A stretch of DNA of 64,000 nt from Candidatus Omnitrophota bacterium (GCA_041648915.1 JBAZOC010000001.1:112960-176959); one strand, 5' to 3'; shown: positions 822-61,994, numbered from the stretch's first letter. Numbers and translations: made by a program. The notes: generated by a model not told the origin, from the letters alone.

Positions 822-1979
822 ATGCTTAGCTTAAAGAAGTTGTATATTCTTTCTTTAATCCTGCTTCTTTTTCTTTTTATCTCTCCCTGTAGCGTCCTGG
901 CCGAAGATACCCTGACCATCACCACCTATTATCCTTCGCCTTACGGAGTATACCGGGAAATGCGCGCTAAGCGCATAGCCATAGGGGATAACTACATTGA
1001 TAACGCTGACTATACCTGGGAAGAATCAGACGGAGACGGAGGAGAGATTGACTACCTGGCGGATCTGGTAGTTGAAGGCAACGTCGGCATCGGGACGACG
1101 AACCCAAGCGATGTTTTGGAAATTGACGGTACTAATCCGATCCTAAAAATTGGCAGCAGGATTAGAATAAAAGCTGATGAGTCTAATAATGACGCTTGGT
1201 TTGGCGCCGGCTCTGATTTAAATAAGATCAAATTTGGCGATGCTGATTTTAGTAGTGCTATGATGACCATTAGTACAGCTACTGGCAACGTCGGCATTGG
1301 GACGACGGCGCCGGGGGCGAAGTTAGATATTTATAACCCGGATACAGTAAGCAATATTGCACCATTTGCAATAACAAATGCTGATACGGATACTTGGTCA
1401 ATGGGGCTTTATGGAACAAGCGCTTATGGATTGTATATAGATGCCCCTCCTGATACAAATTGCCATGGATATTATGGTACAGGTGCCTGTAGGCTGAATG
1501 ACTATGCCGAAATGATGGAATTTTCTGAAATGCCTAAAGACGGCGACATAATCGTCATAGATAAGGATCGTCCGGGATTTATTAAAGTATCGGATCAATC
1601 GAATAGTCAAGATATCGTGGGAGTAGCATCGGAAAATCCCGCGATGGTTATCGGCAGTTATGGAATTTCCATAAAAGGCTGGAAGAATAACCAGCCGAAA
1701 GACGGAACATATATTTATCCTCTTGCCTTATCAGGTAGGAAGATAATTAACGTAACGGACGAAAATGGAGATATTAAACCGGGAGATAAGATTATTTCTT
1801 CTTCCTTGAAAGGCTATGGAGCGAAAGCTTTTGAATCTGGTCAGGTCGTGGGAATGGCTATCGGCGGATTCAGTTCTAGTCCGGAGGATGAAACGGTGAC
1901 TTTGCCAAACGGGAGAAAGGTTAAAGTGGGAAAACTTTTAATAATCATCAATGTGGGATACGCCCGAATCGCACCGTAA
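822..1979 (+). CDS. secreted repeat protein with phage-tail-fibre-like GNVGIGTTxP...L(E/D)I repeats; function unknown
   Basis: The N-terminus is a signal peptide (LILLLFLFISPCSVLA). Two copies of GNVGIGTT(N/A)P...(LEI/LDI) follow, and the C-terminal region is rich in Cys and Gly. Confidence 0.5.
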   Translation: MLSLKKLYILSLILLLFLFISPCSVLAEDTLTITTYYPSPYGVYREMRAKRIAIGDNYIDNADYTWEESDGDGGEIDYLADLVVEGNVGIGTTNPSDVLEIDGTNPILKIGSRIRIKADESNNDAWFGAGSDLNKIKFGDADFSSAMMTISTATGNVGIGTTAPGAKLDIYNPDTVSNIAPFAITNADTDTWSMGLYGTSAYGLYIDAPPDTNCHGYYGTGACRLNDYAEMMEFSEMPKDGDIIVIDKDRPGFIKVSDQSNSQDIVGVASENPAMVIGSYGISIKGWKNNQPKDGTYIYPLALSGRKIINVTDENGDIKPGDKIISSSLKGYGAKAFESGQVVGMAIGGFSSSPEDETVTLPNGRKVKVGKLLIIINVGYARIAP

Positions 1980-2036
1980 AATATCTGCAGAATCATTTTT
2001 TAAAAGGAGGTTTCAAAACTCCTTATAAGAGTAAGA

Positions 2037-2065
2037 TTGACAGGGCTGGGGATATATGGTACATT
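2037..2065 (+). promoter_or_regulatory. candidate sigma-70-type promoter (TTGACA, 17 bp spacer, TACATT) upstream of the Zn-ribbon/PilZ/.../HD-GYP operon
   Basis: The -35 hexamer TTGACA is at 2037-2042 and the -10 hexamer TACATT at 2060-2065. Both were found by eye only. Confidence 0.35.
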
Positions 2066-2110
2066 ATTAACATAAATATAAAACGTTAAAGAAAGGAATC
2101 TAAAACACAA

Positions 2111-2299
2111 ATGGCTACTGAACAGGCACAAAGCGCTACGCAGGCAGAAGCAAAACCCAAAGAGGAAAAGCAGGCTAATTGTTTAAGCTGTAATAAGCCT
2201 ATCCGCAAGATCAGGCGTTATTATCGCGACGGTAAATTCTATTGCACCAAGAAGTGCTGGTCAAATTTTATCCAGAAAGCTAAATCCGAGGAGAAATGA
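2111..2299 (+). CDS. small zinc-ribbon protein (CxxC...CxxxC)
   Basis: The 62-aa product carries the pattern CLSCNKP...YCTKKC. The ORF overlaps the next gene by 4 bp (ATGA), which suggests translational coupling. Confidence 0.5.
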   Translation: MATEQAQSATQAEAKPKEEKQANCLSCNKPIRKIRRYYRDGKFYCTKKCWSNFIQKAKSEEK

Positions 2300-2697
2300 C
2301 CCAGTCCGGGATGGAAAGAAGAAGGCATCCGCGCTTAGAACAGAAGCTCCCTTTTAAGGTGGCGGCTAACGGCTACGGTTTCTCTACCTCTACCCAGAAC
2401 TTAAGCTGCGTAGGCGCGTATTGCCGGATAAAAAAATACATACCGCCTTTTACCAAAGTCGCGGTCAAGCTCAAGCTGCCGATTAAGACAAAAAAAGATA
2501 AAAAATCTTATACTGTTGATTGCACGGGCGTCATCGTCAGGACGGAAGATAAAGACAAGAGCGGCTTTAATATCGCTATTTTCTTTAATGAAATCAACTC
2601 CAGCCAGCGCAAGAAAATATCAGAATATATCGACCAATTCCTTCCGCAAGGGGGAGATGCTCCTAGAGGTTCCTCCGGCCCAAGATGGGGAAAGTAG
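2296..2697 (+). CDS. stand-alone PilZ-domain (c-di-GMP-binding) protein
   Basis: RRRHPR matches the RxxxR motif, and NLSCVGA matches the (D/N)xSxxG motif. Confidence 0.65.
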   Translation: MTQSGMERRRHPRLEQKLPFKVAANGYGFSTSTQNLSCVGAYCRIKKYIPPFTKVAVKLKLPIKTKKDKKSYTVDCTGVIVRTEDKDKSGFNIAIFFNEINSSQRKKISEYIDQFLPQGGDAPRGSSGPRWGK

Positions 2698-3209
2698 CCC
2701 CTGCTAAACCCGTTAAGCTCATCATCGGTTTTATTTTTAAAGAAAAAAAATCCCTGGCGCATGCCAAAACTCTCCTGATTAAACATTTCGGCAGCATAGA
2801 TTTTGAAAGCCGGATTATGCCCTTTACATCTACGCCTTATTACCGGGATGAATTCGGACAGGCCTTAAAGAGAGTATTTATCAGTTTTAAGAAGCTTATC
2901 CCTGCGCAGCAAATCGCCGCTATAAAAATCCTGGCTAATAAAATCGAAAAAAAATTAACTTGCGCTAATAAGCGTACGGTGAACATTGACCCGGGATACC
3001 TGAATTTAGCTAAGCTCGTTTTAGCCTCGACTAAAGACTATGTCCACCGCATCTATTTAGGTAAAGGCATTTACGCGGAGATAACCCTTTTTTTTCAGGA
3101 TAAGGCCTTTCGGCCCGGGCAATGGACCTACCCGGATTACCGGAGCGGTGATTACCTTGCTATCTTTAACCGGATAAGAGAGATCTATGCTGCGCAAACT
3201 AAAAAATAA
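2685..3209 (+). CDS. conserved hypothetical protein, DUF4416-like
   Basis: The 174-aa product resembles DUF4416-family members as I recall them, for example KLIIGFIF...NIDPGYL...KLVLASTKDY.HRIYL...WTYPDY. The ORF overlaps its upstream neighbour and is 9 bp from its downstream neighbour. Confidence 0.4.
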   Translation: MGKVAPAKPVKLIIGFIFKEKKSLAHAKTLLIKHFGSIDFESRIMPFTSTPYYRDEFGQALKRVFISFKKLIPAQQIAAIKILANKIEKKLTCANKRTVNIDPGYLNLAKLVLASTKDYVHRIYLGKGIYAEITLFFQDKAFRPGQWTYPDYRSGDYLAIFNRIREIYAAQTKK

Positions 3210-3218
3210 CTGACTCCT

Positions 3219-4193
3219 ATGCCTTCAGAATACCCGGCGTATTTAAAATCCTACCATAACGGCTACCTGGATAAAATAATCAAAAAACTTTTTCAATGCC
3301 TGGAGTCCTGCGCGATTTGCCCGCGTAAATGCCGGGTAAACCGGATAAACGGGAAACAGGGTTTCTGTAAAACCGGCTTAAAGCCGCAAGTCTACAGTTA
3401 TATGGCCCACCATGGAGAAGAGCCGCCTGTCTCAGGAGTAAAGGGCTCCGGCACAATCTTTTTCTCGAATTGTAATATGGCTTGCCTCTACTGCCAAAAC
3501 TATGAATTCAGCCAGGCAGGCGCAGGCCGGGAAGTTGGTTTTGAGGAGTTAGCCGGATTTATGCTGGAGTTACAAAAGATGGGCTGCCACAATATTAACC
3601 TGGTCACCCCTACCCATATCTTGCCGCAAATCTTGAAAAGTTTAAAAATCGCTATTCCCGCCGGATTAAAAATACCCCTGGTCTATAATAGCGGCGGCTA
3701 TGAATTGCCTGAAATAATAAAATTACTGGAAGGAATAATTGATATCTATATGCCGGATATGCGCTATGCCGATGCCGAGGCAGCAATCCAGTTTTCCGCT
3801 GCTTCAGGTTATCCGGAATATAACCGCAAGGCAGTCAAGGAGATGCACCGGCAGGTTGGCATTGCTCAAATAGATGAAGAGGGGATAATCAAGCGCGGCC
3901 TGATTATCCGGCACCTGGTTTTGCCCAATAATTTGTCGGGGACAGAGAAAATCATGCGTTTTATTGCCGAAGATCTATCCGGGGACACTTATATAAGCTT
4001 GATGAGCCAATACCTGCCGTATCATAAAGCAGCAGAATGCCGGGCAATCAACCGCCGGCTTAGGCTTAAAGAATACGCCGAGGCAAAGGAAATTATGGCC
4101 AGGCACGGATTGTCTAATGGCTGGACCCAGGATGCTTACGGAGCGGAGCGGTTTGCCGGAGTAAATATAAAATCAATTTTATGCACGCCTTAA
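3219..4193 (+). CDS. radical SAM protein, PflX family (COG1313, homologue of pyruvate formate-lyase activase)
   Basis: An N-terminal Cys cluster (CAICPRKCRVNR...GFC) is followed by the radical-SAM CxxxCxxC motif (CNMACLYC). Confidence 0.7.
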   Translation: MPSEYPAYLKSYHNGYLDKIIKKLFQCLESCAICPRKCRVNRINGKQGFCKTGLKPQVYSYMAHHGEEPPVSGVKGSGTIFFSNCNMACLYCQNYEFSQAGAGREVGFEELAGFMLELQKMGCHNINLVTPTHILPQILKSLKIAIPAGLKIPLVYNSGGYELPEIIKLLEGIIDIYMPDMRYADAEAAIQFSAASGYPEYNRKAVKEMHRQVGIAQIDEEGIIKRGLIIRHLVLPNNLSGTEKIMRFIAEDLSGDTYISLMSQYLPYHKAAECRAINRRLRLKEYAEAKEIMARHGLSNGWTQDAYGAERFAGVNIKSILCTP

Positions 4194-5947
4194 CCTTACT
4201 TATAATCAGTCTTCTGGTATTTGCCCTGGCCTACCGTTTTTACGCCAAGTTTATCATAACTAAAATCCTGGTTATTCACCAGCAGCGCTTAACTCCCGCG
4301 CATACCTTGAAAGACGGCCGGGATTATCACCCTACTAATAAATTCGTCCTTTTTGGCCATCACTTTGCCGCGATTTCCGGAGCCGGGCCATTGGTTGGCC
4401 CGGTGTTAGCCGCGCAATTCGGTTTTTTGCCGGGGTTTTTATGGATCCTTATCGGCGCGGTTTTAGGCGGGGCAGTGCATGATACGGTTATACTTTTTGC
4501 CTCGGTAAGGACCAAGGGGCTCTCGCTTACCCGCCTGGCGCGAAAGAACATCAGTAAGACTGCCGGCCTGGTAACCGGTATTGCGGTGCTCTTTATTATT
4601 ATCACTGCCCTGGCTGGCCTGGCTTTAGTTGTGGTTAATGCGCTTAGCGAAAGCGCCTGGGCTACTTTTACTATTGCGATGACTATTCCGGCGGCGCTAA
4701 CGGTTAGTTTATACATGTATAAACTGCGGCCGGGGAAAATCCTGGAGGCTTCTTTAATCGGGGTCCTGATTGTTGCTGCGGGCATAGTCTTCGGAGAGCC
4801 GCTCTCTAAATCGGTTTTTGGCCAGTACTTTTTGCTCTCTAAGCCTTCGCTTTCCATAATCCTGCCGATTTACGGGTTCGTTGCTTCGGTCTTGCCGGTC
4901 TGGCTTCTGTTATGCCCGCGCGATTATATAAGCTCCTATATGAAAATAGGGACTATTCTGCTCTTAGCTGCCGGGATATTTATGGTTAATCCTGTGCTGA
5001 AGATGCCGGCAGTCACCAGTTTTATCCATGGAGGCGGGCCGATTATCCCGGGCAAGGTCTGGCCGTTTGTCTGTATTACCATTGCCTGCGGCGCAATCAG
5101 CGGATTTCACGCCCTGGTCAGTTCCGGTACGACTCCAAAGATGATTAATAAAGAAGCGGATATCCGCATGATTGGCTTTGGCGCGATGCTGGTTGAAGCA
5201 GTAGTCTCTATTATGGCTTTGATTGCGGCGACCGTACTCCTACCGGGTGATTATTTCGCGATTAATGTGCCGGTAGAGGCATTTCAGAAATTGGGCCTTA
5301 GCCCGGTGCATCTTGCCGAGATAGAGAGGATGACCGGAGAAGTCCTGTCCGGGAGAACCGGAGGAGCAGTTTCCCTGGCCGCCGGGATGTCGGTAATCTT
5401 ATCCGCTATTCCCGGGATGAAAGCCCTGATGGGTTATTGGTATCATTTTGCGATTATGTTCGAGGCTTTATTTATTCTGACTACGGTTGATACTGGTACG
5501 CGTGTGGCGCGTTATATTCTGGATGAGCTGATAAAATTAGCCACCCCGCGAAAAAAAATCGGTAAATCCCTCTGGGGAATTGCAGTTAGCGCCGGGACGA
5601 TCAGCCTGCTCTGGGGATACCTGGTCTATAACGGCGAAATTTCTACTATCTGGCCGATGTTCGGCGTGGCTAACCAGCTCCTGGCCACCCTGGCCTTACT
5701 GGTCGGGACCTTATTTATCCTCAGGCACACCAAAAAATGGAGATATGGCTGGATAACTTTTTTGCCTGCGCTTTTTATGTTCGTCACGACAGTTGTTGCC
5801 GGAATAATGAATATTACGGATAATTATTTACCGAAGCATGATTTTCAGGGTAATCTGAATGCCGGGCTTTCAGCCGTAATGATTATCCTGGTTATAATTA
5901 TATTTTTTGAGTCGTTAAAAAGTATGTATCTATTGCGGAGGGGGTAA
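4181..5947 (+). CDS. cstA: carbon starvation protein A family transporter (CstA/BtsT-type pyruvate/peptide transporter)
   Basis: The polytopic 588-aa product contains HPTNKFVLFGHHFAAISGAGPLVGPVLAAQFG, typical of CstA. Confidence 0.85.
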   Translation: MHALTLLIISLLVFALAYRFYAKFIITKILVIHQQRLTPAHTLKDGRDYHPTNKFVLFGHHFAAISGAGPLVGPVLAAQFGFLPGFLWILIGAVLGGAVHDTVILFASVRTKGLSLTRLARKNISKTAGLVTGIAVLFIIITALAGLALVVVNALSESAWATFTIAMTIPAALTVSLYMYKLRPGKILEASLIGVLIVAAGIVFGEPLSKSVFGQYFLLSKPSLSIILPIYGFVASVLPVWLLLCPRDYISSYMKIGTILLLAAGIFMVNPVLKMPAVTSFIHGGGPIIPGKVWPFVCITIACGAISGFHALVSSGTTPKMINKEADIRMIGFGAMLVEAVVSIMALIAATVLLPGDYFAINVPVEAFQKLGLSPVHLAEIERMTGEVLSGRTGGAVSLAAGMSVILSAIPGMKALMGYWYHFAIMFEALFILTTVDTGTRVARYILDELIKLATPRKKIGKSLWGIAVSAGTISLLWGYLVYNGEISTIWPMFGVANQLLATLALLVGTLFILRHTKKWRYGWITFLPALFMFVTTVVAGIMNITDNYLPKHDFQGNLNAGLSAVMIILVIIIFFESLKSMYLLRRG

Positions 5948-5950
5948 ATT

Positions 5951-6445
5951 ATGGCTAATTTTTCTTTTGATATTATTTCCGAGGTGGATTTACAGGAAGT
6001 GGATAATGCGGTAAACCAGGCTTCTAAGGAGCTCTCCCAGCGCTATGATTTTAAAAACAGCAAAGCCTCGATTGTTTTTGACCGTAAAGGAGAAAAAATT
6101 ACGCTGGTTGCCGATGATGAATTCAAGTTGCGCAGCCTTACCGATATTCTGGCTACCCGCCTGGCTAAGCGGGGGGTTTCCCTGAAATCCCTGAAATTCA
6201 ATGCCCCGGAGAAGGCTTTTGAAGGGTATCTGCGCCAGCAGGTTGAAATTTGCATGGGTATTGAGAAGGATAAAGCTAAGGAATTAACCGGCATTATAAA
6301 AGGGTTGGGGCTAAAAGTGCAAACCCAGATAGAAGGGGAGAAGGTCAAGGTCAGCTCGGCCAAGAAAGATGAATTACAGGCGGTTATCGAGCAGCTACGG
6401 AGTTTAGATTTTCCTATCCCGCTTAATTTCGGTAATTATAGATAA
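5951..6445 (+). CDS. yajQ: YajQ-family (UPF0234) nucleotide/c-di-GMP-binding protein
   Basis: MANFSFDIISEVDLQEVDNAVNQASKELSQRYDFK... matches YajQ along its full length. Confidence 0.8.
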   Translation: MANFSFDIISEVDLQEVDNAVNQASKELSQRYDFKNSKASIVFDRKGEKITLVADDEFKLRSLTDILATRLAKRGVSLKSLKFNAPEKAFEGYLRQQVEICMGIEKDKAKELTGIIKGLGLKVQTQIEGEKVKVSSAKKDELQAVIEQLRSLDFPIPLNFGNYR

Positions 6446-6446
6446 T

Positions 6447-7814
6447 ATGAAAAACAGAAAATTATTTTTGCACAGTTTTTACGTAAAAGTAGCCTTATCT
6501 TTTACCCTCTCTTTGCTATTTGTCGCCCTGTTGGGGAATTTTGTCCTTTTCCGGTACGCTTTAAAATCGCAGTTTAATCAGCTCAGGGATAAGCTTAAGG
6601 TAATTGCCCAAACAGCCGCGCTTTCCGTGGATGCCGCCGAATTAAGTAATATCCCGCTAAAACCCGCAGGAGTAGATAGCCCTTCTTTTAAGAGTATTGC
6701 TCTTCGGATGTCTAAGATAAAAGAGGCTAATCCGGTTATCCGGTATATTTACATAATGGTAAAAACAGATACGCCGGGTATCTGGCAGTTTGTGGTTGAT
6801 CCCGGTTTAACCTCCTATCCCGGGGATAAATACGATGCCAGGCGTTTTCCTGAAATGCTTAAGGGTTTTAGCGGCCCGAGCGCAGACACTGGCCTGACTA
6901 TTGATGAATGGGGCAAACTGCTTTCCGGGTATGCGCCTATTTTAAATAAAGATAATATGCCTGTTGCCGTATTAGGCGTGGATATAGATGCTGCTGATGT
7001 TTATCTTGCCGGAAAGGGCTTATTCTACAGGGGTATATTTGTTGTACTGATGGGCGTTGTATTTTCTTTAATCCTTGGTTTTATATTCTCCGCAAAAATA
7101 ATTATTCCCGTCAAGAAGTTGATTGACGGCACTAAGCATATAGTAAAAGGCGATCTTGGCTATCGGGTGAAAGTACCCTCTCAGGATGAAATCGGCCAGC
7201 TCGCCGCCTCTTTTAACGAGATGGCTGCAAATTTAGCCGAGGCGCGGGAAAAATTAAGGGATTATTTTTATCGCGTGGTGCAGGCGATGGTGCGTAGCCT
7301 GGAAGCGAAAGATCCTTATACCCGCGGCCATTCAGAGAGGGTTAGCGAATATGCCTATCAGATTGCCATTGCCATAGGGATACCTTTTAAGGATGCGGAA
7401 CTACTGAAGAAAGCGGCGCAGCTGCATGATATCGGCAAATTAGGCATCCACGAGGGTATCTTAAATAAGAAAAGCGGCTTATCAAAAAGCGAATGGGATA
7501 TTGTGCATAAACACCCTGAGGTAGGCGAAGAGATATTAAAACCGGTGTTCCCGGATGCGCAAATGCTTTCTGTGGCCAGGTCGCATCATGAGCGTTATGA
7601 CGGTAAAGGCTATCCGGACGGTTTAAAAGGCGACCAGCTGAATATCTTTGCGCAGATTGTTACGGTTGCGGATGCCTATGACGCAATGGTTTCTGCGCGT
7701 TCTTATAAAACAGCCCTAACTAGAGAAGAAGCGTTAGTAAGAATAAAAGAAGGGGCGGGGACCCAGTTTAATCCTGCAGTTGTCCAGGCATTTGCTAAAG
7801 TTTTAGAAAGATAA
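6447..7814 (+). CDS. membrane sensor HD-GYP phosphodiesterase (TM, periplasmic Cache-like domain, TM, HAMP, HD-GYP)
   Basis: There are two TM segments and a HAMP-like segment. The HD domain contains HSERV...LHDIGK...HHERYDGKGYPDGL, i.e. the HD and GYP motifs. Confidence 0.8.
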   Translation: MKNRKLFLHSFYVKVALSFTLSLLFVALLGNFVLFRYALKSQFNQLRDKLKVIAQTAALSVDAAELSNIPLKPAGVDSPSFKSIALRMSKIKEANPVIRYIYIMVKTDTPGIWQFVVDPGLTSYPGDKYDARRFPEMLKGFSGPSADTGLTIDEWGKLLSGYAPILNKDNMPVAVLGVDIDAADVYLAGKGLFYRGIFVVLMGVVFSLILGFIFSAKIIIPVKKLIDGTKHIVKGDLGYRVKVPSQDEIGQLAASFNEMAANLAEAREKLRDYFYRVVQAMVRSLEAKDPYTRGHSERVSEYAYQIAIAIGIPFKDAELLKKAAQLHDIGKLGIHEGILNKKSGLSKSEWDIVHKHPEVGEEILKPVFPDAQMLSVARSHHERYDGKGYPDGLKGDQLNIFAQIVTVADAYDAMVSARSYKTALTREEALVRIKEGAGTQFNPAVVQAFAKVLER

Positions 7815-7815
7815 C

Positions 7816-7845
7816 TTGACAAACCACACAAATGTGTGGTATAGC
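7816..7845 (+). promoter_or_regulatory. candidate lexA promoter (TTGACA, 18 bp spacer, TATAGC) with an embedded 16-bp perfect palindrome CCACACAAATGTGTGG (7824-7839) as candidate LexA operator
   Basis: Direct reading only. The palindrome lies between -35 and -10, and the predicted transcription start is about at the ATG at 7853, which implies a leaderless or very short-leader mRNA. Confidence 0.4.
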
Positions 7846-7852
7846 TATAACT

Positions 7853-8467
7853 ATGGAAAAGAAGCCGGATCTGACGCCTAAACAGGAAAAGGTGCTTAAT
7901 TTTATCCGTAAGCGGATAGGGGAGAGATTACCTCCTACGATTAGAGAGATAGCCGGGGAGCTGGGGTTTAAATCTACCGGCACAGTCAGGGATTATTTAA
8001 AGGCTTTAGAGCAGAAAGGCCTGCTTAGGCGGATGAACAACAAATCCCGGGCCTTGGAATTAACTGAGCGTGCCAGCGTGAACAGGATCCCTATAATTGG
8101 TACCATCATGGCCGGCAGGCCAAATCTGGCTTATGAAGAAATTCAAGGCTATGTGGATGTGGACAATCTGTTTTTAGGCCGCCTGGGCTTTGACGATGTT
8201 TTTGCTTTAAGGGTTAAAGGCGTCAGTATGGTTGGTGCCGGTATTCTGGATGGGGATGTAGCGATTATTAAGAAACAGCCCTCTGCTGAAAATAACGCAA
8301 TAGTGGCTGCGCTTCTGGATAATAATGAAGTTACCTTAAAAAAGCTAGCGCGTAAAAACAATAAATATCATCTGGAGGCGGCTAACCCGGATTACCCGCC
8401 GATTTTTGAAGAGTTTAAGGTAATCGGGAAACTTATGGCCGTGATCAGGAAGTATGCATCAAAATAG
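7853..8467 (+). CDS. lexA: LexA repressor (S24 peptidase)
   Basis: The N-terminal wHTH reads PTIREIAGELGFKSTGTVRDYLKALEQKGLL. The C-terminal S24 domain reads GVSMVGAGILDGDVAIIKK. The start at 7853 (MEKK) is preferred over the ATG at 7832, which lies inside the operator. Confidence 0.85.
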   Translation: MEKKPDLTPKQEKVLNFIRKRIGERLPPTIREIAGELGFKSTGTVRDYLKALEQKGLLRRMNNKSRALELTERASVNRIPIIGTIMAGRPNLAYEEIQGYVDVDNLFLGRLGFDDVFALRVKGVSMVGAGILDGDVAIIKKQPSAENNAIVAALLDNNEVTLKKLARKNNKYHLEAANPDYPPIFEEFKVIGKLMAVIRKYASK

Positions 8468-8762
8468 TTTTAACCCTCAGGCTCGCTGGGACAGGTTTGA
8501 GCCGGATAAGGCCGGCTTTAATCCGGATGCGCTGGCTGAGCGCATTGAGGTCCTGGCTTATTTTAAGAACGCCAGGATCTATCCTAAAGCTTTTCTTTGG
8601 AGTAATAAGGAATATAAAATTGATAACATAACCTATAACTGGCAGGAGCGCCTGGGCCAGGCATTGGTTAGTTACTTTTCCGTAGTCAGTTCCGGGCAGC
8701 TTTACCAGATATCCTTTAATAATTCCACCTTCCGCTGGCAGATCGATAAGATAATCCCATAA
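8454..8762 (+). CDS. hypothetical 102-aa protein between lexA and dinB, probably SOS-co-transcribed
   Basis: The ORF overlaps the lexA stop by 14 nt and ends about 20 nt before dinB. I recognise no motif in it. Confidence 0.4.
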   Translation: MHQNSFNPQARWDRFEPDKAGFNPDALAERIEVLAYFKNARIYPKAFLWSNKEYKIDNITYNWQERLGQALVSYFSVVSSGQLYQISFNNSTFRWQIDKIIP

Positions 8763-8784
8763 TAATCTCCGGGTGTGTTTAAAG

Positions 8785-18027: not shown

Positions 18028-18567
18028 TTAATGGCCCCGGAACTTTACCAGCGAAAAAACAGGGTAGCCTTTTAGTTTTTCTTTGCCCTGCAGGTCAACC
18101 AGTTCAATGACAAACCCGATGCCCTGGATTTTGCCTTTCAGCTTATTGACCAGTCCGATCACCGCTTTTACCGTGCCGCCGGTAGCCAGGAGGTCGTCAA
18201 TGATCAGGATTCTTTCTCCCGGTTCTATCGCGTCTTCATGGATTTCCAGGGTATCTGTCCCGTATTCCAAGGCGTAAGTAGCCGCGATAACCTTACGGGG
18301 GAGCTTGCCTTTTTTACGCACCGGGACAAAGCCGGCGCCGATTCTATGGGCCAGGGCTGCACCAAAGATAAAACCCCGCGCTTCCACTCCTACGACCTTG
18401 TTGATGCGCTTACCTTTATATTTATATGTTAATAAATCTACCGTTTTTTTAAAAGCAATCCTGTCCTGAATTAAAGAAGTAATGTCGCGGAAGATAATCC
18501 CTGCCTTGGGAAAATCAACGATGTTTTTTATGGCTTTTTCTAAAACCGGGTCGTTTTTTTTGCTCAT
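18028..18567 (-). CDS. apt: adenine phosphoribosyltransferase
   Basis: GVEARGFIFGAALAH...ILIIDDLLATGGT is the PRPP-binding motif. Confidence 0.85.
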   Translation of the reverse strand: MSKKNDPVLEKAIKNIVDFPKAGIIFRDITSLIQDRIAFKKTVDLLTYKYKGKRINKVVGVEARGFIFGAALAHRIGAGFVPVRKKGKLPRKVIAATYALEYGTDTLEIHEDAIEPGERILIIDDLLATGGTVKAVIGLVNKLKGKIQGIGFVIELVDLQGKEKLKGYPVFSLVKFRGH

Positions 18568-19379
18568 AGCTCTTCCTTGGCTCCTTCCACAAATTTCCTT
18601 ATTTTCTTTAAGGCTATTTCTTCTATCTGGCGGATCCTCTCCCTGGAGACGCCTAATTTTTTGGCTACCTCGGCCAAGGTGTGTGTTTTTTTATCGGCCA
18701 GGCCAAAACGCATATCTAAAATTTCTCTTTCCCGCTCCGTCATAATTTCCAGCAGATTGGCTACCCTTTCTTTGTCCAGCAGGTGTTCAATCTTGCTGTC
18801 CGGCTGTATGGATGCGCTGTCTTCAATTAAATCCGAGACTTTTCCTTCGCTGTCTTCGCCGATCGGCGCTTCCAGCGATGAAGTTGAAGTGGACATCCAG
18901 AAGTTTATCTGCGCTATTTTTTCTTTAGGAATTTTTAATTTTTTGGCTATTTCCTCGTCGGTAGGGATACGTTTTAACCTTTGGCTCAGGCGCTCGCGGG
19001 TTTTACGCCATTTAGCGATTATATCGTTCATATATACCGGAACGCGGATCATCTTACCCTGTTCGGAGATCGAGCGCGTAATCGCCTGCTTAATCCACCA
19101 GGCCGCATAAGTTGAGAAACGGAAGCCCTTATTAGGGTCAAACTTATCCACTGCTTTCATCAGGCCTAAGTTTCCCTCTTCAATTAGGTCCAGGAAAGGA
19201 GTCCCCAGGCGCATATACCTTTTAGCAATGTTGATCACCAGGCGCAGGTTAGCCTGGATCATGGCTTTGCGTGCCTGCTCATCCCCTCTTTTAATCTTCC
19301 GGCTTAAAGAAACCTCTTCGCTGGCGCTGAGCAAAGGAATATTCCGGATCTCTTTAAGGTAAGTTTTTAGTGCTTCCAT
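18564..19379 (-). CDS. RNA polymerase sigma factor, sigma-70 family (compact, regions 1.2-4; RpoD/RpoS-like)
   Basis: Regions 2, 3 and 4 are all present: LIEEGNLGLMKAVDKFD, STYAAWWIKQAI and TLAEVAKKLGVSRERIRQIE. Confidence 0.75.
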   Translation of the reverse strand: MEALKTYLKEIRNIPLLSASEEVSLSRKIKRGDEQARKAMIQANLRLVINIAKRYMRLGTPFLDLIEEGNLGLMKAVDKFDPNKGFRFSTYAAWWIKQAITRSISEQGKMIRVPVYMNDIIAKWRKTRERLSQRLKRIPTDEEIAKKLKIPKEKIAQINFWMSTSTSSLEAPIGEDSEGKVSDLIEDSASIQPDSKIEHLLDKERVANLLEIMTEREREILDMRFGLADKKTHTLAEVAKKLGVSRERIRQIEEIALKKIRKFVEGAKEEL

Positions 19380-19397
19380 ATTTTTAGTCAGGGACGG

Positions 19398-22139
19398 TTA
19401 TTTCTTTCTTTTTTCTCTCAGTACTGCCTGGGCCGCGGCCAATTTTGCAATCGGAACGCGAAAGGGCGAACAACTTACATAATTCATCCCTACCCGGTGG
19501 CAGAATTCCACTGATCTTGGCTCTCCGCCATGCTCGCCGCAAATGCCGATTTCTAAGCCCTTGCGGGTCTTCCTACCTCTGGCAATGGCGATCTGGATCA
19601 GTTGGCCGATCCCTTCCTGGTCAATGCTCTGGAACGGGTCTTCCGGCAAAATGCCTTTTTTAATATACTCCGGCACAAAGCCTCCGATATCATCGCGCGA
19701 AAATCCAAAACCCATCTGGGTAAGGTCATTGGTCCCGAAGGAGAAGAACTCTGCCACTGTGGCAATCTTATCCGCGACTAATGCTGCCCGCGGGATCTCG
19801 ATCATCGTCCCGAACATATGCTTGATTGTTTTAATATTGTATTTTTTCAGGGTTTGCGCATAAAGCGCCTTAGCGATCACCAGCTGGTCATTTAGCTCCT
19901 TAACATCGCAGACCACCGGGATCATAATCTCCGGATAAGGTTTCCTGCCTTCTTTGAGCAATTCAGCGGCAGCTTCAAATATGGCGCGTATCTGCATTGC
20001 GCTAATTTCAGGATAAGTTATGCCCAGGCGCACGCCGCGATGGCCCATCATCGGGTTGGATTCATGCAGGTTCTCGGCGCGCCGGGATAGCTCTTCCATA
20101 TTGATATTTAATTCCCGGGCGAGCTCTTCTAACTTTACCTGTTCGCGCGGGACAAACTCATGCAGGGGCGGATCAAGCAAACGGATGACTACCGGAAAAC
20201 CATCCATTGCTTCCAGTGTCCCTTTAATATCTTTTTTTACATAGGGGAACAGTTCTTCTGTTGCTTTTTTTCTTTCATCCTCCGTCTTTGAGATAATCAT
20301 TTTACGCAGGATAAATAACGGTTCATCCGCGCCTTTGCCGTAGAACATGTGCTCGGTCCGGAATAACCCTATTCCTTCAGCTCCGAACTGGCGGGCCTTG
20401 ACCGCATCATCCGGGGTTTCGGCGTTGGTGCGGATACCCAGTTTTTTAATAGCGCCGCAGATTTTTAAAAAATTCATCAGCATGGCGTTTTCTTCCGAGG
20501 CATCCATCATCGCCAGCTTGCCTGCATAGACTATGCCTTTGGTCCCGTTTAAAGTGATCCAGTCGCCTTCTTTTAAGGTTTTTCCGCCGGCGTTGATCGT
20601 CTTGTTTTCTGAATCAACATGCAGGTCGCTGGCGCCGACAATGCAGCATTTGCCCCAGCCGCGGGCAACCAAGGCGGCGTGGCTAGTCATTCCGCCGCGG
20701 GCAGTAAGGATTGCTTCGGCAGCGCGCATACCTTCAACATCCTCCGGGTTTGTTTCTTCGCGCAGAAGTATGACTTTTTTGCCTTGCAGTTTCCAGGCTA
20801 CCGCGTCTTTGGCATTGAAGACGATTTGACCGCAGGCGCCTCCGGGGCCAGCAGGCAAGCCTTTCACTAAAGGTTTATTCAGGCCTTCTGCTTTAGGGTC
20901 AATGATCGGATGCAGCAGCTCATCTAATTGCGCCGGAGTTACACGCATAACCGCTTCTTCTTTTTTAATCAATTTCTCTTTGACCATCTCCATGGCCATG
21001 CGTACTGCTGCCGGGCCATTGCGTTTTCCAATGCGGCACTGCAGCATAAAGAGCCTTCCCTTTTCAATGGTAAATTCAATATCCTGCATATCGCGGTAAT
21101 GCTTTTCCAGGCGTTTCTGGATCGCAAAAAGCTCCTTATAAATCGCCGGCATGCCCTTTTCCAGCGTCAGTAAATCTTTATTATGCGCGGATTGGGAAAA
21201 AGTATTGATCGGCGCAGGGGTGCGGATACCGGCAACTACGTCTTCGCCTTGGGCGTTGATCAGATACTCGCCGTAGAAATGCGCGTCGCCGTTTCCGGGG
21301 TTGCGGGTAAAGGCTACGCCGGTAGCCGAGTCATTTCCCATATTACCGAAGACCATAGTCTGTACGTTTACCGCGGTTCCCCATTCATCCGGTATGCCTT
21401 CGATGCGGCGGTAGCTTATAGCGCGCTTTCCGTTCCAGGAAGAAAATACCGCGCTGATCCCGCCCCATAGCTGTTGCCTGGGCTCATCCGGAAATTCTTT
21501 GCCCAAAACTTCTTTGATCTTTATTTTATATTTCGCACAGATATCTTTTAGGTCGGCCAGGGTTAAATCCGTATCGGCTTTCGAGCCTCTCTTCTGCTTT
21601 ACCTCATCCATGATCCGCTCTAGCTGCTTGCGGATACCCATATCCTCTTTTGGCTCTATACCGGCTGCCTTTTCCATAACTACGTCGGAGTACATCGTAA
21701 TCAGCCGGCGGTAGGCATCGTAGACAAAGCGCTCATTGCCGCCTGCCTGTTTGACTAAGCCGGGAATTGTTTTTTCGGTCAAACCCACATTAAGGACAGT
21801 CTCCATCATCCCGGGCATAGACTTGCGCGCGCCGCTCCTGACCGAGACTAATAAGGGGTTAGCCGGATCGCCGAATTTCCTAGCCATGAGCTTCTCGACA
21901 GTGGCGAGCGCCTTTTCCACCTGGCCTTTTAGCTCCTTGGGGTAAGACTTTTTATGCCCGTAATAATAGGTGCAGACTTCCGTAGTCAGGGTAAATCCCG
22001 GAGGAACAGGGAGCCTTAAATTTTTATGGCCGGCCATTTCCGCTAAATTCGCGCCTTTGCCGCCCAGAAGATTTTTCATGCTTTCATTGCCGTCTGCTTT
22101 GCCGCCGCCGAAGGAGTAAACGTATTTTTTGTTACCCAT
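19398..22139 (-). CDS. ppdK: pyruvate, phosphate dikinase
   Basis: The 913-aa product begins with the N-terminal PPDK signature ...GGKGANLAEM. The GGMTSHAA phospho-His motif and a C-terminal PEP-utilising domain are present. Confidence 0.9.
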   Translation of the reverse strand: MGNKKYVYSFGGGKADGNESMKNLLGGKGANLAEMAGHKNLRLPVPPGFTLTTEVCTYYYGHKKSYPKELKGQVEKALATVEKLMARKFGDPANPLLVSVRSGARKSMPGMMETVLNVGLTEKTIPGLVKQAGGNERFVYDAYRRLITMYSDVVMEKAAGIEPKEDMGIRKQLERIMDEVKQKRGSKADTDLTLADLKDICAKYKIKIKEVLGKEFPDEPRQQLWGGISAVFSSWNGKRAISYRRIEGIPDEWGTAVNVQTMVFGNMGNDSATGVAFTRNPGNGDAHFYGEYLINAQGEDVVAGIRTPAPINTFSQSAHNKDLLTLEKGMPAIYKELFAIQKRLEKHYRDMQDIEFTIEKGRLFMLQCRIGKRNGPAAVRMAMEMVKEKLIKKEEAVMRVTPAQLDELLHPIIDPKAEGLNKPLVKGLPAGPGGACGQIVFNAKDAVAWKLQGKKVILLREETNPEDVEGMRAAEAILTARGGMTSHAALVARGWGKCCIVGASDLHVDSENKTINAGGKTLKEGDWITLNGTKGIVYAGKLAMMDASEENAMLMNFLKICGAIKKLGIRTNAETPDDAVKARQFGAEGIGLFRTEHMFYGKGADEPLFILRKMIISKTEDERKKATEELFPYVKKDIKGTLEAMDGFPVVIRLLDPPLHEFVPREQVKLEELARELNINMEELSRRAENLHESNPMMGHRGVRLGITYPEISAMQIRAIFEAAAELLKEGRKPYPEIMIPVVCDVKELNDQLVIAKALYAQTLKKYNIKTIKHMFGTMIEIPRAALVADKIATVAEFFSFGTNDLTQMGFGFSRDDIGGFVPEYIKKGILPEDPFQSIDQEGIGQLIQIAIARGRKTRKGLEIGICGEHGGEPRSVEFCHRVGMNYVSCSPFRVPIAKLAAAQAVLREKRKK

Positions 22140-22166
22140 TTGCTTTAAAACCCTGCCTTTCTTTAG

Positions 22167-23471
22167 TTAAATAAGTTTGTTGGACAAGTATTCTCTTAAA
22201 TTCTCTATGGCCATTCTCTCCTGCTGCATGCTGTCGCGCTCGCGCACAGTCACCTGTTTGTCTTCCAGGCTCTGTACGTCCACCGTAACACAATAAAGCG
22301 TGCCTACCTCATCCTGCCTGCGGTAAAGTTTGCCGATGGCGCCTGTATCATCATATACCGCAACCAGCGCTTGCTTTAAATCCCGGGCAATCGTTTTAGC
22401 CAGCCCGACGATCTCCGGCCGGTTCCTTAAAAGCGGCAGCACCGCCACTTTGGTGGGAGCCAGGTCCTTATGCAGTTTTAAAACTACCCGCGTATCCTCC
22501 CTGACCTTTTCTTCATGGTAAGCGTTAATTAAAAAAGCCAATACTGCCCGGTCCACTCCGCCCGAAGGCTCAATGATATAAGGGTAAAACCTTTCCTTGA
22601 GCGCGTCGTCAAAATATTTCAAATCCCTGCCGCTGGATTCGGCATGCTGTTTTAAATCAAAATCCGTGCGGTTGGCAATACCTTCTAATTCGCTCCACCC
22701 GAAAGGAAAGTTGTATTCTATGTCCGTGCAGGAAGCCGCATAATGCGCTAATTCATCCTTGGCGTGTTCGCGTTTTTTCAGGTTTTCTTTTTTTATCCCT
22801 AAGTTTATATACCAGTTAAATCTTTCCTCCACCCAGGATTTATAGTATTTATCCGCCTCAGCAGGCCTTACAAAATACTCCAGCTCCATCTGTTCAAATT
22901 CACGGGTGCGAAAAGTAAAATTGCCCGGAGTTATTTCATTGCGGAATGATTTTCCGATCTGGGCCAGTCCGAAAGGAAGCTTAGGATGCCGGGAGTCCAG
23001 GATATTCAGGAAATTTACGAACATACCCTGGGCGGTTTCCGGGCGCATATATATTTCATTACCGGCTTCTTCTACCGGGCCCTGATAGGTTTTAAACATA
23101 AGATTAAAGGGCCGCGCCTCGGTAAGCGCCCCGCCGCACTCAGGGCATTTATTTTTATCTGTTAAGTCCGCGCCTTTAAAACGTTTTTTACATTTCCGGC
23201 AATCGCTTTTTAAATCAAAAAAGTTTTGTACATGGCCGCTGGCCTCCCAGACTTTGGGGTGCATCAGGATAGCCGCGTCCATGCCCAGGGTATCGTCACG
23301 CGCGTAGACGTTCGCTTTCCACCAGGCGCGCTTCAGGTTATTTTTAAGTTCAACCCCGTAAGGGCCGTAATCCCAGGTATTGCTCAAACCCCCGTAAATA
23401 TCCGAGGACTGAAATATAAAACCCCTTCTTTTGCAAAGGGCAACCACCTTTTCCATCAAGTTTTCGCTCAT
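22167..23471 (-). CDS. glyQS: glycine--tRNA ligase (class II, dimeric form)
   Basis: MEKVVALCKRRGFIFQSSDIYGG... matches GlyQS. The start was trimmed to MSEN, so the ORF-track start at 23510 is probably too far upstream. Confidence 0.85.
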   Translation of the reverse strand: MSENLMEKVVALCKRRGFIFQSSDIYGGLSNTWDYGPYGVELKNNLKRAWWKANVYARDDTLGMDAAILMHPKVWEASGHVQNFFDLKSDCRKCKKRFKGADLTDKNKCPECGGALTEARPFNLMFKTYQGPVEEAGNEIYMRPETAQGMFVNFLNILDSRHPKLPFGLAQIGKSFRNEITPGNFTFRTREFEQMELEYFVRPAEADKYYKSWVEERFNWYINLGIKKENLKKREHAKDELAHYAASCTDIEYNFPFGWSELEGIANRTDFDLKQHAESSGRDLKYFDDALKERFYPYIIEPSGGVDRAVLAFLINAYHEEKVREDTRVVLKLHKDLAPTKVAVLPLLRNRPEIVGLAKTIARDLKQALVAVYDDTGAIGKLYRRQDEVGTLYCVTVDVQSLEDKQVTVRERDSMQQERMAIENLREYLSNKLI

Positions 23472-23519
23472 AAGTCCTCTATTCTTAGCATAGTTTGCAA
23501 TAAAAATCAAGCACTTTAC

Positions 23520-25054: not shown

Positions 25055-25055
25055 A

Positions 25056-26423: not shown

Positions 26424-26424
26424 C

Positions 26425-32378: not shown

Positions 32379-32379
32379 C

Positions 32380-61897: not shown

Positions 61898-61908
61898 GGT
61901 AATTTTAT

Positions 61909-61983
61909 TCGGGGCGACAGGACTTGAACCTGTGACCTCTTGAACCCCATTCAAGCGCTCTAGCCAAACTGAGCCACGCCCCG
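61909..61983 (-). tRNA. tRNA-Pro (anticodon GGG)
   Basis: The minus-strand read is CGGGGCG TG GCTC AGTTTGGCT AGAGC G CTTGA ATGGGGT TCAAG AGGTC ACAGG TTCAAGT CCTGT CGCCCCG A, a standard cloverleaf. Confidence 0.8.
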
Positions 61984-61994
61984 TATAATCTATT

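What the first reader, a model, noticed from the sequence alone, without database searches (positions are those of the whole stretch)
2037..7814. Seven-gene overlapping operon coupling c-di-GMP signalling (PilZ, YajQ, HD-GYP sensor) to a CstA transporter and an orphan PflX-type radical SAM activase
The genes Zn-ribbon (2111), PilZ (2296), DUF4416-like (2685), PflX-family radical SAM (3219), CstA (4181), YajQ (5951) and Cache-HAMP-HD-GYP (6447) are separated by -13 to +9 bp, so they are almost certainly co-transcribed from the promoter-like site at 2037-2065. The operon contains two c-di-GMP receptor types (PilZ, and YajQ, which binds c-di-GMP in Xanthomonas) and a degrading enzyme (HD-GYP) with a periplasmic sensor. 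CstA/BtsT proteins import pyruvate/peptides. PflX-type proteins are predicted glycyl-radical-enzyme activases, yet the window contains no glycyl radical enzyme. The DUF4416-PflX pair (9-bp gap) looks like a functional couple of unknown role. Taken together, this suggests a nutrient-(pyruvate?)-sensing second-messenger circuit that is not described as such.
Basis: partly seen in the sequence, partly recalled or inferred. Interest (0 to 1): 0.58.

Follow-up and report, generated by a model that had tools for sequence, protein, structure and literature searches.

The report
Mosaic c-di-GMP operon in Omnitrophota
The seven tightly packed genes are real and probably share one promoter, but they are a lineage-specific join of a phylum-conserved block (zinc-ribbon, PilZ, DUF4416, PFL-activase-like radical SAM enzyme), a locally conserved YajQ/HD-GYP pair and a movable CstA transporter, not a dedicated pyruvate-sensing circuit.

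Summary
All seven ORFs sit at the stated coordinates with spacings of -4, -13, +9, -13, +3 and +1 bp, and the domain calls are confirmed, except that no Cache domain is detectable. The promoter-like site at 2037-2065 is conserved in relatives. The source is a Candidatus Omnitrophota MAG.

- Tight spacing is the norm here: 41 of 55 same-strand neighbour pairs have gaps of 20 bp or less.
- PilZ genes are common: four in 64 kb.
- The seven-gene order exists only in relatives about 90% identical. In more distant relatives, the segment between the radical SAM gene and YajQ holds three to five other genes. CstA is in that segment in only one of them.

What is conserved across Omnitrophota is PilZ (42/49 loci), the Zn-ribbon, DUF4416 and the PflX-type radical SAM gene (25/44), often with conserved overlaps. 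aroB is kept nearby just as often (21/29), so synteny alone is weak evidence of function.

DUF4416 and PflX have no literature. The PflX model is closest to PFL-activating enzyme. The DUF4416 model is ferredoxin-like, with about 15 invariant polar residues.

My best reading is a mosaic operon whose core may be a PilZ-linked DUF4416/radical SAM pair. Interest is modest.

The parts
1997..2031 (+). Hairpin after the upstream Peptidase_G2/S74-like gene; a possible terminator that sets the 5' limit of the unit
   Evidence: RNA fold gives -14.3 kcal/mol, z = -2.7 against shuffles. There is no U-tract. A weak sub-threshold Rfam hit lies here and nothing else.
2037..2065 (+). Sigma-70-type promoter: TTGACA, 17 nt, TG-n-TACATT
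   Evidence: 10 of 12 consensus matches plus an extended -10. Both hexamers are conserved in L083 (DUF4416 90% identical) and L003 (77%) while the flanks diverge.
2111..2299 (+). 62-aa four-cysteine Zn-ribbon protein (CxxC-17-CxxxC), in no curated family
   Evidence: Only a sub-threshold LIM hit. The four Cys are invariant in 21 orthologues. The ATGA overlap with PilZ is conserved in at least 7 loci.
2296..2697 (+). Stand-alone PilZ-domain protein; predicted c-di-GMP receptor
   Evidence: Pfam PilZ 8e-11. RxxxR and [DN]xSxxG are present here and in 32 of 32 orthologues. A PilZ gene lies directly upstream of DUF4416 in 43 of 80 loci, against 4.7 expected.
2685..3209 (+). DUF4416 protein, uncharacterised; ferredoxin-like alpha+beta fold with many invariant polar residues
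   Evidence: Pfam 5e-61. AF2 pLDDT 91.7. Only weak PDB fold matches. 26 residues are conserved in at least 97% of 91 sequences from at least three phyla, including E56, R63, K81, E88, R97, N100, D102, G104, K117, H121, R122, E132, D151 and R165.
3219..4193 (+). PflX-type (PFL-activase-like) radical SAM enzyme with an extra N-terminal 4-Cys site
   Evidence: Radical_SAM 1e-9. NCBIfam activase models score far below their cut-offs. JGI names it 'putative pyruvate formate lyase activating enzyme'. AF2 pLDDT 88.8, with PFL-AE 3c8f/3cb8 as best fold match (E 3e-9, TM 0.68 normalised by target). Both Cys motifs are invariant.
4181..5947 (+). CstA-family transporter, short form (588 aa); it occupies a variable slot
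   Evidence: Pfam CstA 6e-202. NCBIfam CstA equivalog gives 539 bits against a cut-off of 1188, matching model positions 33-599 of 701. CstA is not adjacent to PflX in any relative below about 90% identity.
5951..6445 (+). YajQ/DUF520 family protein; a candidate second c-di-GMP receptor
   Evidence: NCBIfam NF003819 gives 190.9 bits, above the 146 cut-off. YajQ is adjacent or near HD-GYP only in close lineages.
6447..7814 (+). Membrane sensor: TM, ~150-aa extracytoplasmic domain, TM, HAMP, HD-GYP phosphodiesterase
   Evidence: HAMP 2e-13 and HD_5 5e-32. All HD-GYP metal-ligand motifs and GYP are present. No Cache hit for the outer domain.
7816..7845 (+). lexA promoter with palindromic operator (CCACACAAATGTGTGG); regulatory 3' boundary of the unit
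   Evidence: Read from the sequence. Identical in L083 and conserved with two changes in L018. It is the only copy in the window.

Best explanation
The seven genes are most likely one transcription unit in a very compact Omnitrophota genome. The unit is a mosaic of three parts, not a single-purpose circuit.

Module A: Zn-ribbon, PilZ, DUF4416 and the PflX-type radical SAM gene. This block is conserved across the phylum and its genes overlap, which suggests translational coupling. In most relatives a DUF2062 membrane protein and a small HisKA-like membrane protein follow it.

Module B: YajQ and the membrane HD-GYP sensor, followed by lexA, a 102-aa ORF and dinB. This block is conserved only in relatives at about genus or family level.

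Variable slot: the segment between A and B. It holds CstA alone here, four genes without CstA in one relative, three in another, and five genes including CstA in L004.

Inferred mechanism:
- The HD-GYP sensor lowers c-di-GMP in response to an extracytoplasmic cue.
- PilZ and YajQ read the c-di-GMP level.
- The stand-alone PilZ, possibly with its Zn-ribbon partner, acts as an adaptor on the products it is co-translated with. These are DUF4416, which looks like an enzyme or ligand-binding protein, and a PFL-activase-like radical SAM enzyme that probably works on a protein or peptide-like substrate.
- CstA simply shares the transcript.

Shown here: gene content, motifs, spacing, promoter conservation, synteny pattern and fold similarities. 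Inferred: co-transcription, c-di-GMP binding, any PilZ-DUF4416-PflX interaction, and every biochemical activity.
For: - Coordinates, spacing and domains.
- The promoter is conserved in relatives.
- lexA has its own conserved promoter and operator immediately after HD-GYP.
- GTDB scan anchored on DUF4416 (80 loci). In Omnitrophota-like loci, PilZ lies directly upstream in 42 of 49 and PflX directly downstream in 25 of 44. The -4 and -13 bp overlaps recur in distant loci, and so does the -8 bp PflX/DUF2062 overlap.
- PilZ adjacency occurs in 43 of 80 loci, against 4.7 expected from the background PilZ density.
- Relatives about 90% identical keep all seven genes but have a different upstream region.
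- A relative about 80% identical, L004 and L006 show the slot between PflX and YajQ is variable.
- All 32 PilZ orthologues keep both c-di-GMP motifs.
- The PflX model's best match is PFL-AE, about 10,000-fold better in E-value than the next enzyme family.
- DUF4416 has about 15 invariant charged or polar residues across at least three phyla.
- PflX lies 1.3-1.5 kb from DUF4416 in one Anaerolineae subgroup, on the opposite strand.
Against: - Regional synteny is generally high in this phylum. The functionally unrelated aroB is kept within 7 kb upstream in 21 of 29 loci, so conserved order alone may be inheritance and not function.
- In Poribacteria (13 of 13 loci) DUF4416 has neither PilZ nor PflX nearby. 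In other Chloroflexota it also lacks them.
- DUF4416's neighbours and fused partners elsewhere are heterogeneous: peptidases S58 and M48, AnmK, PurM, RfaE and ThiI.
- No RNA data exist. Internal promoters cannot be excluded: weak promoter-like sites lie at 5781-5824, but site counts equal the chance expectation.
- No binding or activity has been tested.
- DUF4416 has no informative fold match: best TM 0.39-0.43, E about 1e-2.
Confidence: 0.5

Rival explanations
1. All seven genes form one dedicated nutrient (pyruvate or peptide) sensing c-di-GMP circuit, in which the HD-GYP sensor, PilZ and YajQ control CstA uptake and the PflX/DUF4416 pair.
For: - The genes are tightly packed behind one conserved promoter.
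- The order is kept in relatives about 90% identical.
- A CstA orthologue (86% identical) lies in the same neighbourhood in L004.
- CstA family members import pyruvate in E. coli (PMC5847655, PMC7730263).
Against: - CstA is missing from this position in the relative about 80% identical and in L006. In L004 it is separated from PflX by three genes and from YajQ by an opposite-strand gene.
- No CstA, YajQ or HD-GYP accompanies the core in more distant loci.
- Such spacing is the genomic norm.
- There are four PilZ genes in 64 kb.
- The protein scores far below the CstA pyruvate-symporter equivalog cut-off and lacks the C-terminal region of the model.
Confidence: 0.1
2. There is no functional coupling at all. 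The cluster is a string of unrelated housekeeping and signalling genes packed together by genome compaction. The conserved sub-blocks reflect slow rearrangement within Omnitrophota and not shared function.
For: - About 97% of the window is in ORFs and the median gap is 1 bp.
- aroB is retained nearby as often as PflX.
- Other PilZ genes sit between gpsA, a tRNA and a thymidylate-synthase-like gene.
- DUF4416 has unrelated neighbours and fusion partners in other phyla.
Against: - PilZ lies directly upstream of DUF4416 about nine times more often than the background PilZ density predicts.
- The overlapping start/stop arrangements (-4, -13, -8 bp) are conserved down to about 55-60% protein identity.
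- PflX is near DUF4416 in a second phylum, in a different orientation.
- When other genes are inserted (M48 peptidase, c9/c14), PilZ stays attached to DUF4416.
Confidence: 0.3
3. A different mechanism for the core. PflX is a true activase, and the small DUF4416 protein is its protein substrate. It would carry a radical or radical-installed modification at the invariant D-P-G-Y site, under PilZ/c-di-GMP control.
For: - The PflX fold is closest to PFL-AE, an enzyme that acts on a protein glycine loop.
- No glycyl radical enzyme is in the window.
- D102 and G104 are invariant and are followed by a conserved aromatic Y105, which recalls the G-[YFW] of glycyl radical motifs.
Against: - The DUF4416 model is a ferredoxin-like fold, not a glycyl-radical barrel or a GrcA-like domain. 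D-P-G-Y lies inside a predicted strand, not on a finger loop.
- The many invariant charged residues fit an active or ligand-binding site better than a passive substrate.
- DUF4416 occurs without an adjacent PflX in several phyla.
- Only 64 kb of the genome was searched for a glycyl radical enzyme.
Confidence: 0.1

Closest known systems
Stand-alone PilZ adaptor proteins encoded next to their targets (for example YcgR, MapZ and PilZ-FimX type c-di-GMP receptors; from general knowledge)
   Same: It is a single-domain PilZ with intact RxxxR and [D/N]xSxxG motifs. It is encoded immediately beside, and overlapping, the genes it might regulate.
   Different: The neighbours are an uncharacterised DUF4416 protein, a 62-aa Zn-ribbon and a radical SAM enzyme. 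I found no description of a PilZ/radical SAM link. Neither binding nor a target has been shown.
Pyruvate formate-lyase activating enzyme (PflA; PDB 3c8f/3cb8) and other glycyl-radical-enzyme activases
   Same: It has the CX3CX2C radical SAM site. PFL-AE is the best structural match (E 3e-9; TM 0.53 normalised by query, 0.68 by target) and the only PDB sequence-profile hit.
   Different: - It is only 16-17% identical.
- It scores 17-24 bits against activase equivalog cut-offs of 131-375.
- It has about 80 extra N-terminal residues with an invariant CxxCPRxC...C site.
- No glycyl radical enzyme is nearby.
- It belongs to the uncharacterised 'PflX' group, for which I found no experimental literature.
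YajQ-family c-di-GMP effectors (Xanthomonas XC_3703, Lysobacter CdgL; PMC4199771, PMC6988422)
   Same: It is a full-length member above the NCBIfam cut-off.
   Different: The known examples act with a LysR-type regulator. Here the neighbour is an HD-GYP sensor, and only in close relatives. Binding is untested.
HD-GYP c-di-GMP phosphodiesterases (RpfG, PmGH type; from general knowledge)
   Same: The HD_5 domain is present with every metal-ligand motif and GYP.
   Different: Input comes through two TM segments, an unclassified ~150-aa outer domain and HAMP, not through a receiver domain. No Cache signature is present.
E. coli CstA/BtsT pyruvate transporters (PMC5847655, PMC7730263)
   Same: It has the same Pfam family core, matched end to end.
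   Different: It is 588 aa against a 701-position model and lacks the C-terminal part of that model. It scores below the equivalog cut-off, so its substrate cannot be transferred from E. coli.

Membership tests
PilZ c-di-GMP receptor | PilZ domain profile match above the Pfam gathering score | tested here: met
   42.6 bits against a cut-off of 22.5
PilZ c-di-GMP receptor | RxxxR and [D/N]xSxxG binding motifs | tested here: met
   R9-R13 and N35-G40. Both motifs are kept in 32 of 32 orthologues.
PilZ c-di-GMP receptor | Binds c-di-GMP | not testable with these tools
   Needs DRaCALA or ITC.
YajQ family | Full-length match above the NCBIfam equivalog cut-off | tested here: met
   190.9 bits against 146, model positions 3-163 of 164
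HD-GYP phosphodiesterase | HD_5/HD domain with the H, HD, H, HH and D metal ligands and the GYP motif | tested here: met
   HD_5 5e-32. Motifs at 295, 327-328, 354/356, 380-381, 388-390 and 409.
   No Cache family at E<=1 for residues about 38-193, and none for the full protein. The fold was not modelled.
CstA pyruvate/proton symporter (NCBIfam NF011590 equivalog) | Score above the equivalog cut-off over the full model | tested here: not met
   538.9 bits against 1188, covering model positions 33-599 of 701. Membership of the Pfam CstA family itself is met (6e-202).
Glycyl-radical-enzyme activase (PflA/NrdG type) | CX3CX2C radical SAM cluster site | tested here: met
   C85, C89 and C92 are invariant in 64 sequences.
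Glycyl-radical-enzyme activase (PflA/NrdG type) | Score above the curated activase model cut-offs | tested here: not met
   NrdG2 23.9 against 131; PFLA 17.6 against 232; PRK11145 16.8 against 375
Glycyl-radical-enzyme activase (PflA/NrdG type) | Fold closest to a solved activase | tested here: met
   3c8f E 2.8e-9, TM 0.68 normalised by target; the next family scores 3e-5.
Glycyl-radical-enzyme activase (PflA/NrdG type) | A cognate glycyl radical enzyme encoded nearby | tested here: not met
   tblastn with the PflB C-terminus found nothing. Nine large ORFs scanned against Pfam, plus CstA, are other proteins. Only 64 kb could be searched.
PflX group (KEGG K04070 / COG1313) | Assignment by the KO/COG model | not testable with these tools
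   The only indirect support is that JGI gives the protein and its homologues the product name 'putative pyruvate formate lyase activating enzyme'. From memory this is the K04070 name. No KO or COG library is available here.
DUF4416 (PF14385) | Full-length profile match | tested here: met
   205.8 bits against 27, model positions 2-162 of 162
HPPK-like fold (a lead for DUF4416) | Significant structural or profile similarity to 6-hydroxymethyl-dihydropterin pyrophosphokinase | tested here: inconclusive
   Foldseek gives E about 1e-2 and TM 0.39-0.43 over about 113 columns. hhalign against E. coli FolK is negative, probability 0.2%. No HPPK hit in Pfam at E<=10 for 68 members.
Operon (single transcription unit) | Same strand, no room for intergenic signals, and a conserved upstream promoter | tested here: met
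   Gaps are 9 bp or less. The promoter is conserved.
Operon (single transcription unit) | No internal promoters or terminators; a single transcript observed | tested here: inconclusive
   Promoter-like sites number 15 against 14.3 expected. Terminator-like sites number 19 against 10.4, all weak and inside coding sequence. No RNA data are available.

The most novel reading that the evidence does not exclude
The phylum-conserved core would be a c-di-GMP-gated radical SAM system. A PilZ adaptor, with a Zn-ribbon partner, would control a PFL-activase-like enzyme (PflX). PflX's partner or substrate would be the DUF4416 protein, for example through a new radical-bearing or radical-modified small protein at the invariant D-P-G-Y site. 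That would assign a first function to two uncharacterised families, and would be the first link I know of between c-di-GMP and radical SAM chemistry.
Probability: 0.1. Interest if true: 0.8.

Novelty: new variant of a known kind. Interest (0 to 1): 0.33.

Why it matters
As first proposed, a pyruvate-sensing c-di-GMP circuit would have been a new regulatory logic. The evidence does not support it.

What remains useful is narrower. In Omnitrophota, an uncultured phylum, a motif-intact PilZ gene is persistently attached to DUF4416 and usually to a PflX-type radical SAM gene. In the paper library searched, I found no paper that mentions DUF4416 and none that treats PflX as a radical SAM enzyme. 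DUF4416 has about 2,450 clusters at 50% identity. PflX gave at least 8,000 homologues, which is the tool's scoring cap.

This gives experimenters a concrete set of proteins to co-express and test. It also shows that gene overlap in compact genomes is poor evidence of shared function.

Tried and rejected
- HPPK homology of DUF4416. The R-x-x-N-x-D motif resembles R-x-x-D-x-D in HPPK, and the best Foldseek hits include HPPK. But hhalign against E. coli FolK was negative, and Pfam gave no HPPK hit at E<=10 for 68 members. No folK gene was found in any held locus from which to build a better profile. I keep it only as a weak lead.
- Fusions. I searched 1.84 billion cluster representatives with the DUF4416 profile hoping for DUF4416-PflX fusions. 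The long hits are fused to AnmK, an M48/HtpX-like protease, PurM, RfaE domain II and Ub-Mut7C. None is fused to a radical SAM domain, and the partners have no common theme.
- RiPP reading, with the Zn-ribbon as a precursor peptide. I rejected it because in every locus examined here the gene appears only once, is well conserved and has a folded Zn-ribbon pattern.
- Riboswitch or leader RNA. Rfam found nothing in 1900-8000.
- Repeats. Only short, chance-level matches were found.
- Internal promoter upstream of yajQ. The alignment of relatives was uninformative.
- Literature. There is nothing on DUF4416/PF14385, nothing relevant on PflX/COG1313/K04070, and no described PilZ/radical SAM link.

Full report
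**Observation**

- Zn-ribbon, 2111-2299
- PilZ, 2296-2697
- DUF4416, 2685-3209
- radical SAM, 3219-4193
- CstA, 4181-5947
- YajQ, 5951-6445
- TM-HAMP-HD-GYP, 6447-7814

The spacings are -4, -13, +9, -13, +3 and +1 bp.

Pfam and NCBIfam confirm the families:
- PilZ scores 8e-11 and DUF4416 5e-61.
- Radical_SAM scores 1e-9, with only sub-threshold hits to the NrdG and PflA activase models.
- CstA scores 6e-202.
- YajQ scores above its equivalog cut-off.
- HAMP and HD_5 are both present.

Reading the sequences gives:
- an intact RxxxR and NxSxxG in PilZ;
- every HD-GYP metal-ligand motif plus GYP;
- two hydrophobic segments that bracket a ~150-residue outer domain in the HD-GYP protein;
- a CxxC-17-CxxxC Zn-ribbon;
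- in the radical SAM protein, the CX3CX2C site plus an N-terminal CxxCPRxC...C site.

The one label that fails is Cache. The outer domain matches no Cache profile, even at E<=1.

The protein names attached to exact and near matches place the source in a Candidatus Omnitrophota MAG.

**Boundaries and transcription**

The promoter-like site at 2037-2065 (TTGACA, 17 nt, TG-n-TACATT) is the second-best match in the scanned region. Both hexamers are conserved in relatives whose DUF4416 is 90% and 77% identical, while the surrounding sequence diverges.

Upstream lies a hairpin after a Peptidase_G2/S74-like gene.

Directly after the HD-GYP stop codon there is a second TTGACA. A perfect 16-bp palindrome (CCACACAAATGTGTGG) sits in the spacer before lexA. 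This element is identical in the 90% relative and is kept with two changes in a locus whose LexA is only 63% identical. So lexA has its own, probably self-repressed, promoter.

It cannot be proven here:
- Promoter-like sites inside the cluster are no more frequent than chance (15 against 14.3 expected).
- The terminator-like sites are weak and lie inside coding sequence.
- No Rfam element is present.

**How special is the packing?**

Not very.
- In the whole window, 41 of 55 same-strand neighbour pairs are 20 bp or less apart. The median gap is 1 bp, and about 97% of the DNA lies in the ORFs retained by a crude caller.
- PilZ genes are also common. Three more lie at 61.1-63.4 kb, between gpsA, a tRNA and a thymidylate-synthase-like gene.
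- The background PilZ density in related loci is about one per 25 kb.

I anchored a scan of one genome per GTDB species on a DUF4416 alignment. It returned 80 loci. I mapped the window's proteins and clustered the neighbours.

In Omnitrophota-labelled MAGs, and in the Planctomycetes-labelled MAGs that share the layout, the recurrent arrangement is: aroB, then two opposite-strand genes (one an AAA_22 ATPase), then PilZ, Zn-ribbon, PilZ, DUF4416, PflX, DUF2062 and a small HisKA-like membrane protein.
- A PilZ gene lies directly upstream of DUF4416 in 42 of 49 such loci.
- PflX lies directly downstream in 25 of 44.
- Over all 80 loci, PilZ adjacency is about nine times the background expectation: 43 observed against 4.7 expected.
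- The -4 (Zn-ribbon/PilZ), -13 (PilZ/DUF4416) and -8 bp (PflX/DUF2062) overlaps recur in several loci.

By contrast, CstA, YajQ and HD-GYP follow the core only in close relatives, and never in the same way:

| Relative | Content between PflX and YajQ, and beyond |
|---|---|
| Contigs about 90% identical | All seven genes plus lexA, a 102-aa ORF and dinB; the upstream region differs |
| Relative about 80% identical | DUF2062, 142-aa protein, bestrophin-like, DUF362/Fer4, then YajQ, a small zinc finger, HD-GYP, lexA; no CstA |
| L004 | DUF2062, HisKA-like, bestrophin-like, CstA, an opposite-strand gene, then YajQ and carB |
| L006 | DUF2062, HisKA-like, a 135-aa protein, then YajQ, an 81-aa protein, HD-GYP |

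The cluster is therefore a mosaic: a phylum-level module A, a genus- or family-level module B, and a variable slot that here holds only CstA.

**Caveat on synteny**

aroB, which has no plausible functional tie, is retained within 7 kb upstream in 21 of 29 evaluable loci. Gene order in this phylum is simply conservative.

Outside the phylum the association mostly disappears:
- Thirteen Poribacteria loci have DUF4416 next to a Peptidase_S58 gene, near rpoB and fusA. None has PilZ or PflX nearby.
- One Anaerolineae subgroup has ThiI, then DUF4416, then convergently a FecR-like gene and PflX.
- A more distant Chloroflexota relative has neither.

**The two uncharacterised proteins**

*DUF4416*
- It has no literature and no PDB sequence relative.
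- It has about 2,450 clusters at 50% identity.
- Its AF2 model is confident (pLDDT 91.7). It shows a beta-alpha-beta-beta-alpha-beta core with extra hairpins and a C-terminal helix.
- Foldseek against the PDB finds only generic ferredoxin-like matches (HPPK, PII, ribosomal S6/S10, E2 DNA-binding domain) at E about 1e-2 and TM 0.4 or less. Profile tests for HPPK homology were negative.
- Across 91 sequences from at least three phyla, 26 residues are conserved in at least 97%. About 15 of them are charged or polar, including E56, R63, K81, E88, R97, N100, D102, K117, H121, R122, E132, D151 and R165. This pattern fits an active or ligand-binding site better than a scaffold.
- Long proteins that contain DUF4416 are fused to AnmK, an HtpX-like M48 protease, PurM, RfaE domain II or Ub-Mut7C, and never to a radical SAM domain.

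*PflX-type protein*
- JGI names it 'putative pyruvate formate lyase activating enzyme'.
- It is about 70% identical across the closest 120 homologues, all those carrying a taxon name being Omnitrophota. Both Cys sites are invariant in a 64-sequence alignment.
- Its only PDB sequence-profile hit is the cluster loop of PFL-AE.
- Its AF2 model (pLDDT 88.8) matches PFL-AE best (E 3e-9, TM 0.68 normalised by target). The next families are about 10,000-fold weaker in E-value.
- It is activase-like in fold but fails the curated activase models.
- It has no glycyl radical enzyme within 64 kb.

**Most likely mechanism**

Shown here: the anatomy, motifs, conservation pattern and fold relations described above.

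Inferred:
- The HD-GYP sensor lowers c-di-GMP in response to an external cue.
- PilZ and YajQ read the c-di-GMP level. YajQ proteins bind c-di-GMP in Xanthomonas and Lysobacter (PMC4199771, PMC6988422).
- The PilZ protein, perhaps with the Zn-ribbon, acts on the products it is co-translated with: DUF4416 and the PFL-AE-like radical SAM enzyme.
- CstA, whose E. coli relatives import pyruvate (PMC5847655, PMC7730263), is a passenger in a variable slot. It is also a short form that scores below the equivalog cut-off.

**Novelty and verdict**

The component families and the idea of a PilZ gene sitting beside its target are known. The PilZ-DUF4416-PflX association is not described in the literature I could search. 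It is the only part with discovery value, and it rests on within-phylum synteny that may partly reflect inheritance. I rate it a new variant of a known kind, with modest interest.

Noticed in passing
window 7816-7855: lexA has a TTGACA -35 box, a perfect 16-bp palindrome CCACACAAATGTGTGG in the spacer and a TATAGC -10 box. The ATG at 7853 lies only 7 nt after the -10 box, so the mRNA may be leaderless and the true start is probably 7853, not 7832. The palindrome is conserved in L083 and L018, which makes it a candidate Omnitrophota SOS box. It occurs only once in the window.
   Followed up: partly
window 7832-9879: lexA, a 102-aa ORF (8454-8762; weak, sub-threshold DUF6504 hit) and a DinB/IMS polymerase gene form a trio. 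The trio is conserved in relatives about 90% and 80% identical and in L018.
   Followed up: partly
window 61137-63369 (- strand): Three more stand-alone PilZ genes are interleaved with gpsA, a tRNA (61909-61983) and a thymidylate-synthase-like ORF. That makes four PilZ genes in 64 kb, which suggests an unusually large set of PilZ receptors in this organism.
   Followed up: partly
window 822-1979: A 385-aa protein with a hydrophobic, signal-like N-terminus lies directly upstream. It has a weak hit to Peptidase_G2 and its relatives hit Peptidase_S74 (the intramolecular-chaperone autoproteolysis domain, as at the C-terminus of phage tailspikes). Its length and the region upstream of it differ between close relatives.
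   Followed up: no
L038-L074 (Poribacteria); L005, L014, L019, L022, L040; L033, L051, L067, L075, L077: DUF4416 sits beside peptidase-type genes in three separate contexts. These are Peptidase_S58 in Poribacteria, an M48 peptidase inserted between DUF4416 and PflX in five Omnitrophota loci, and an S33/S9-like alpha/beta-hydrolase in five others. One metagenomic protein fuses DUF4416 to an HtpX-like M48 protease, and another fuses it to AnmK. This may hint at envelope or peptide metabolism.
   Followed up: partly
L086 4867-6537; L087 4791-6552: In one Anaerolineae subgroup, thiI (THUMP/ThiI) ends 0-88 bp before DUF4416 on the same strand. A FecR-like gene and PflX converge from the other side.
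   Followed up: no
L003-L041, downstream of PflX: A DUF2062 membrane protein overlaps the PflX stop codon by 8 bp in several Omnitrophota loci. A small membrane protein with a HisKA-like helix follows it. Both genes are missing from the window, where CstA abuts PflX instead.
   Followed up: partly
window 19398-22139 (- strand): A pyruvate phosphate dikinase gene lies in a run of 14 same-strand ORFs (18028-33132) whose gaps are all under 30 bp. This illustrates how long such tightly packed gene strings are in this genome.
   Followed up: no
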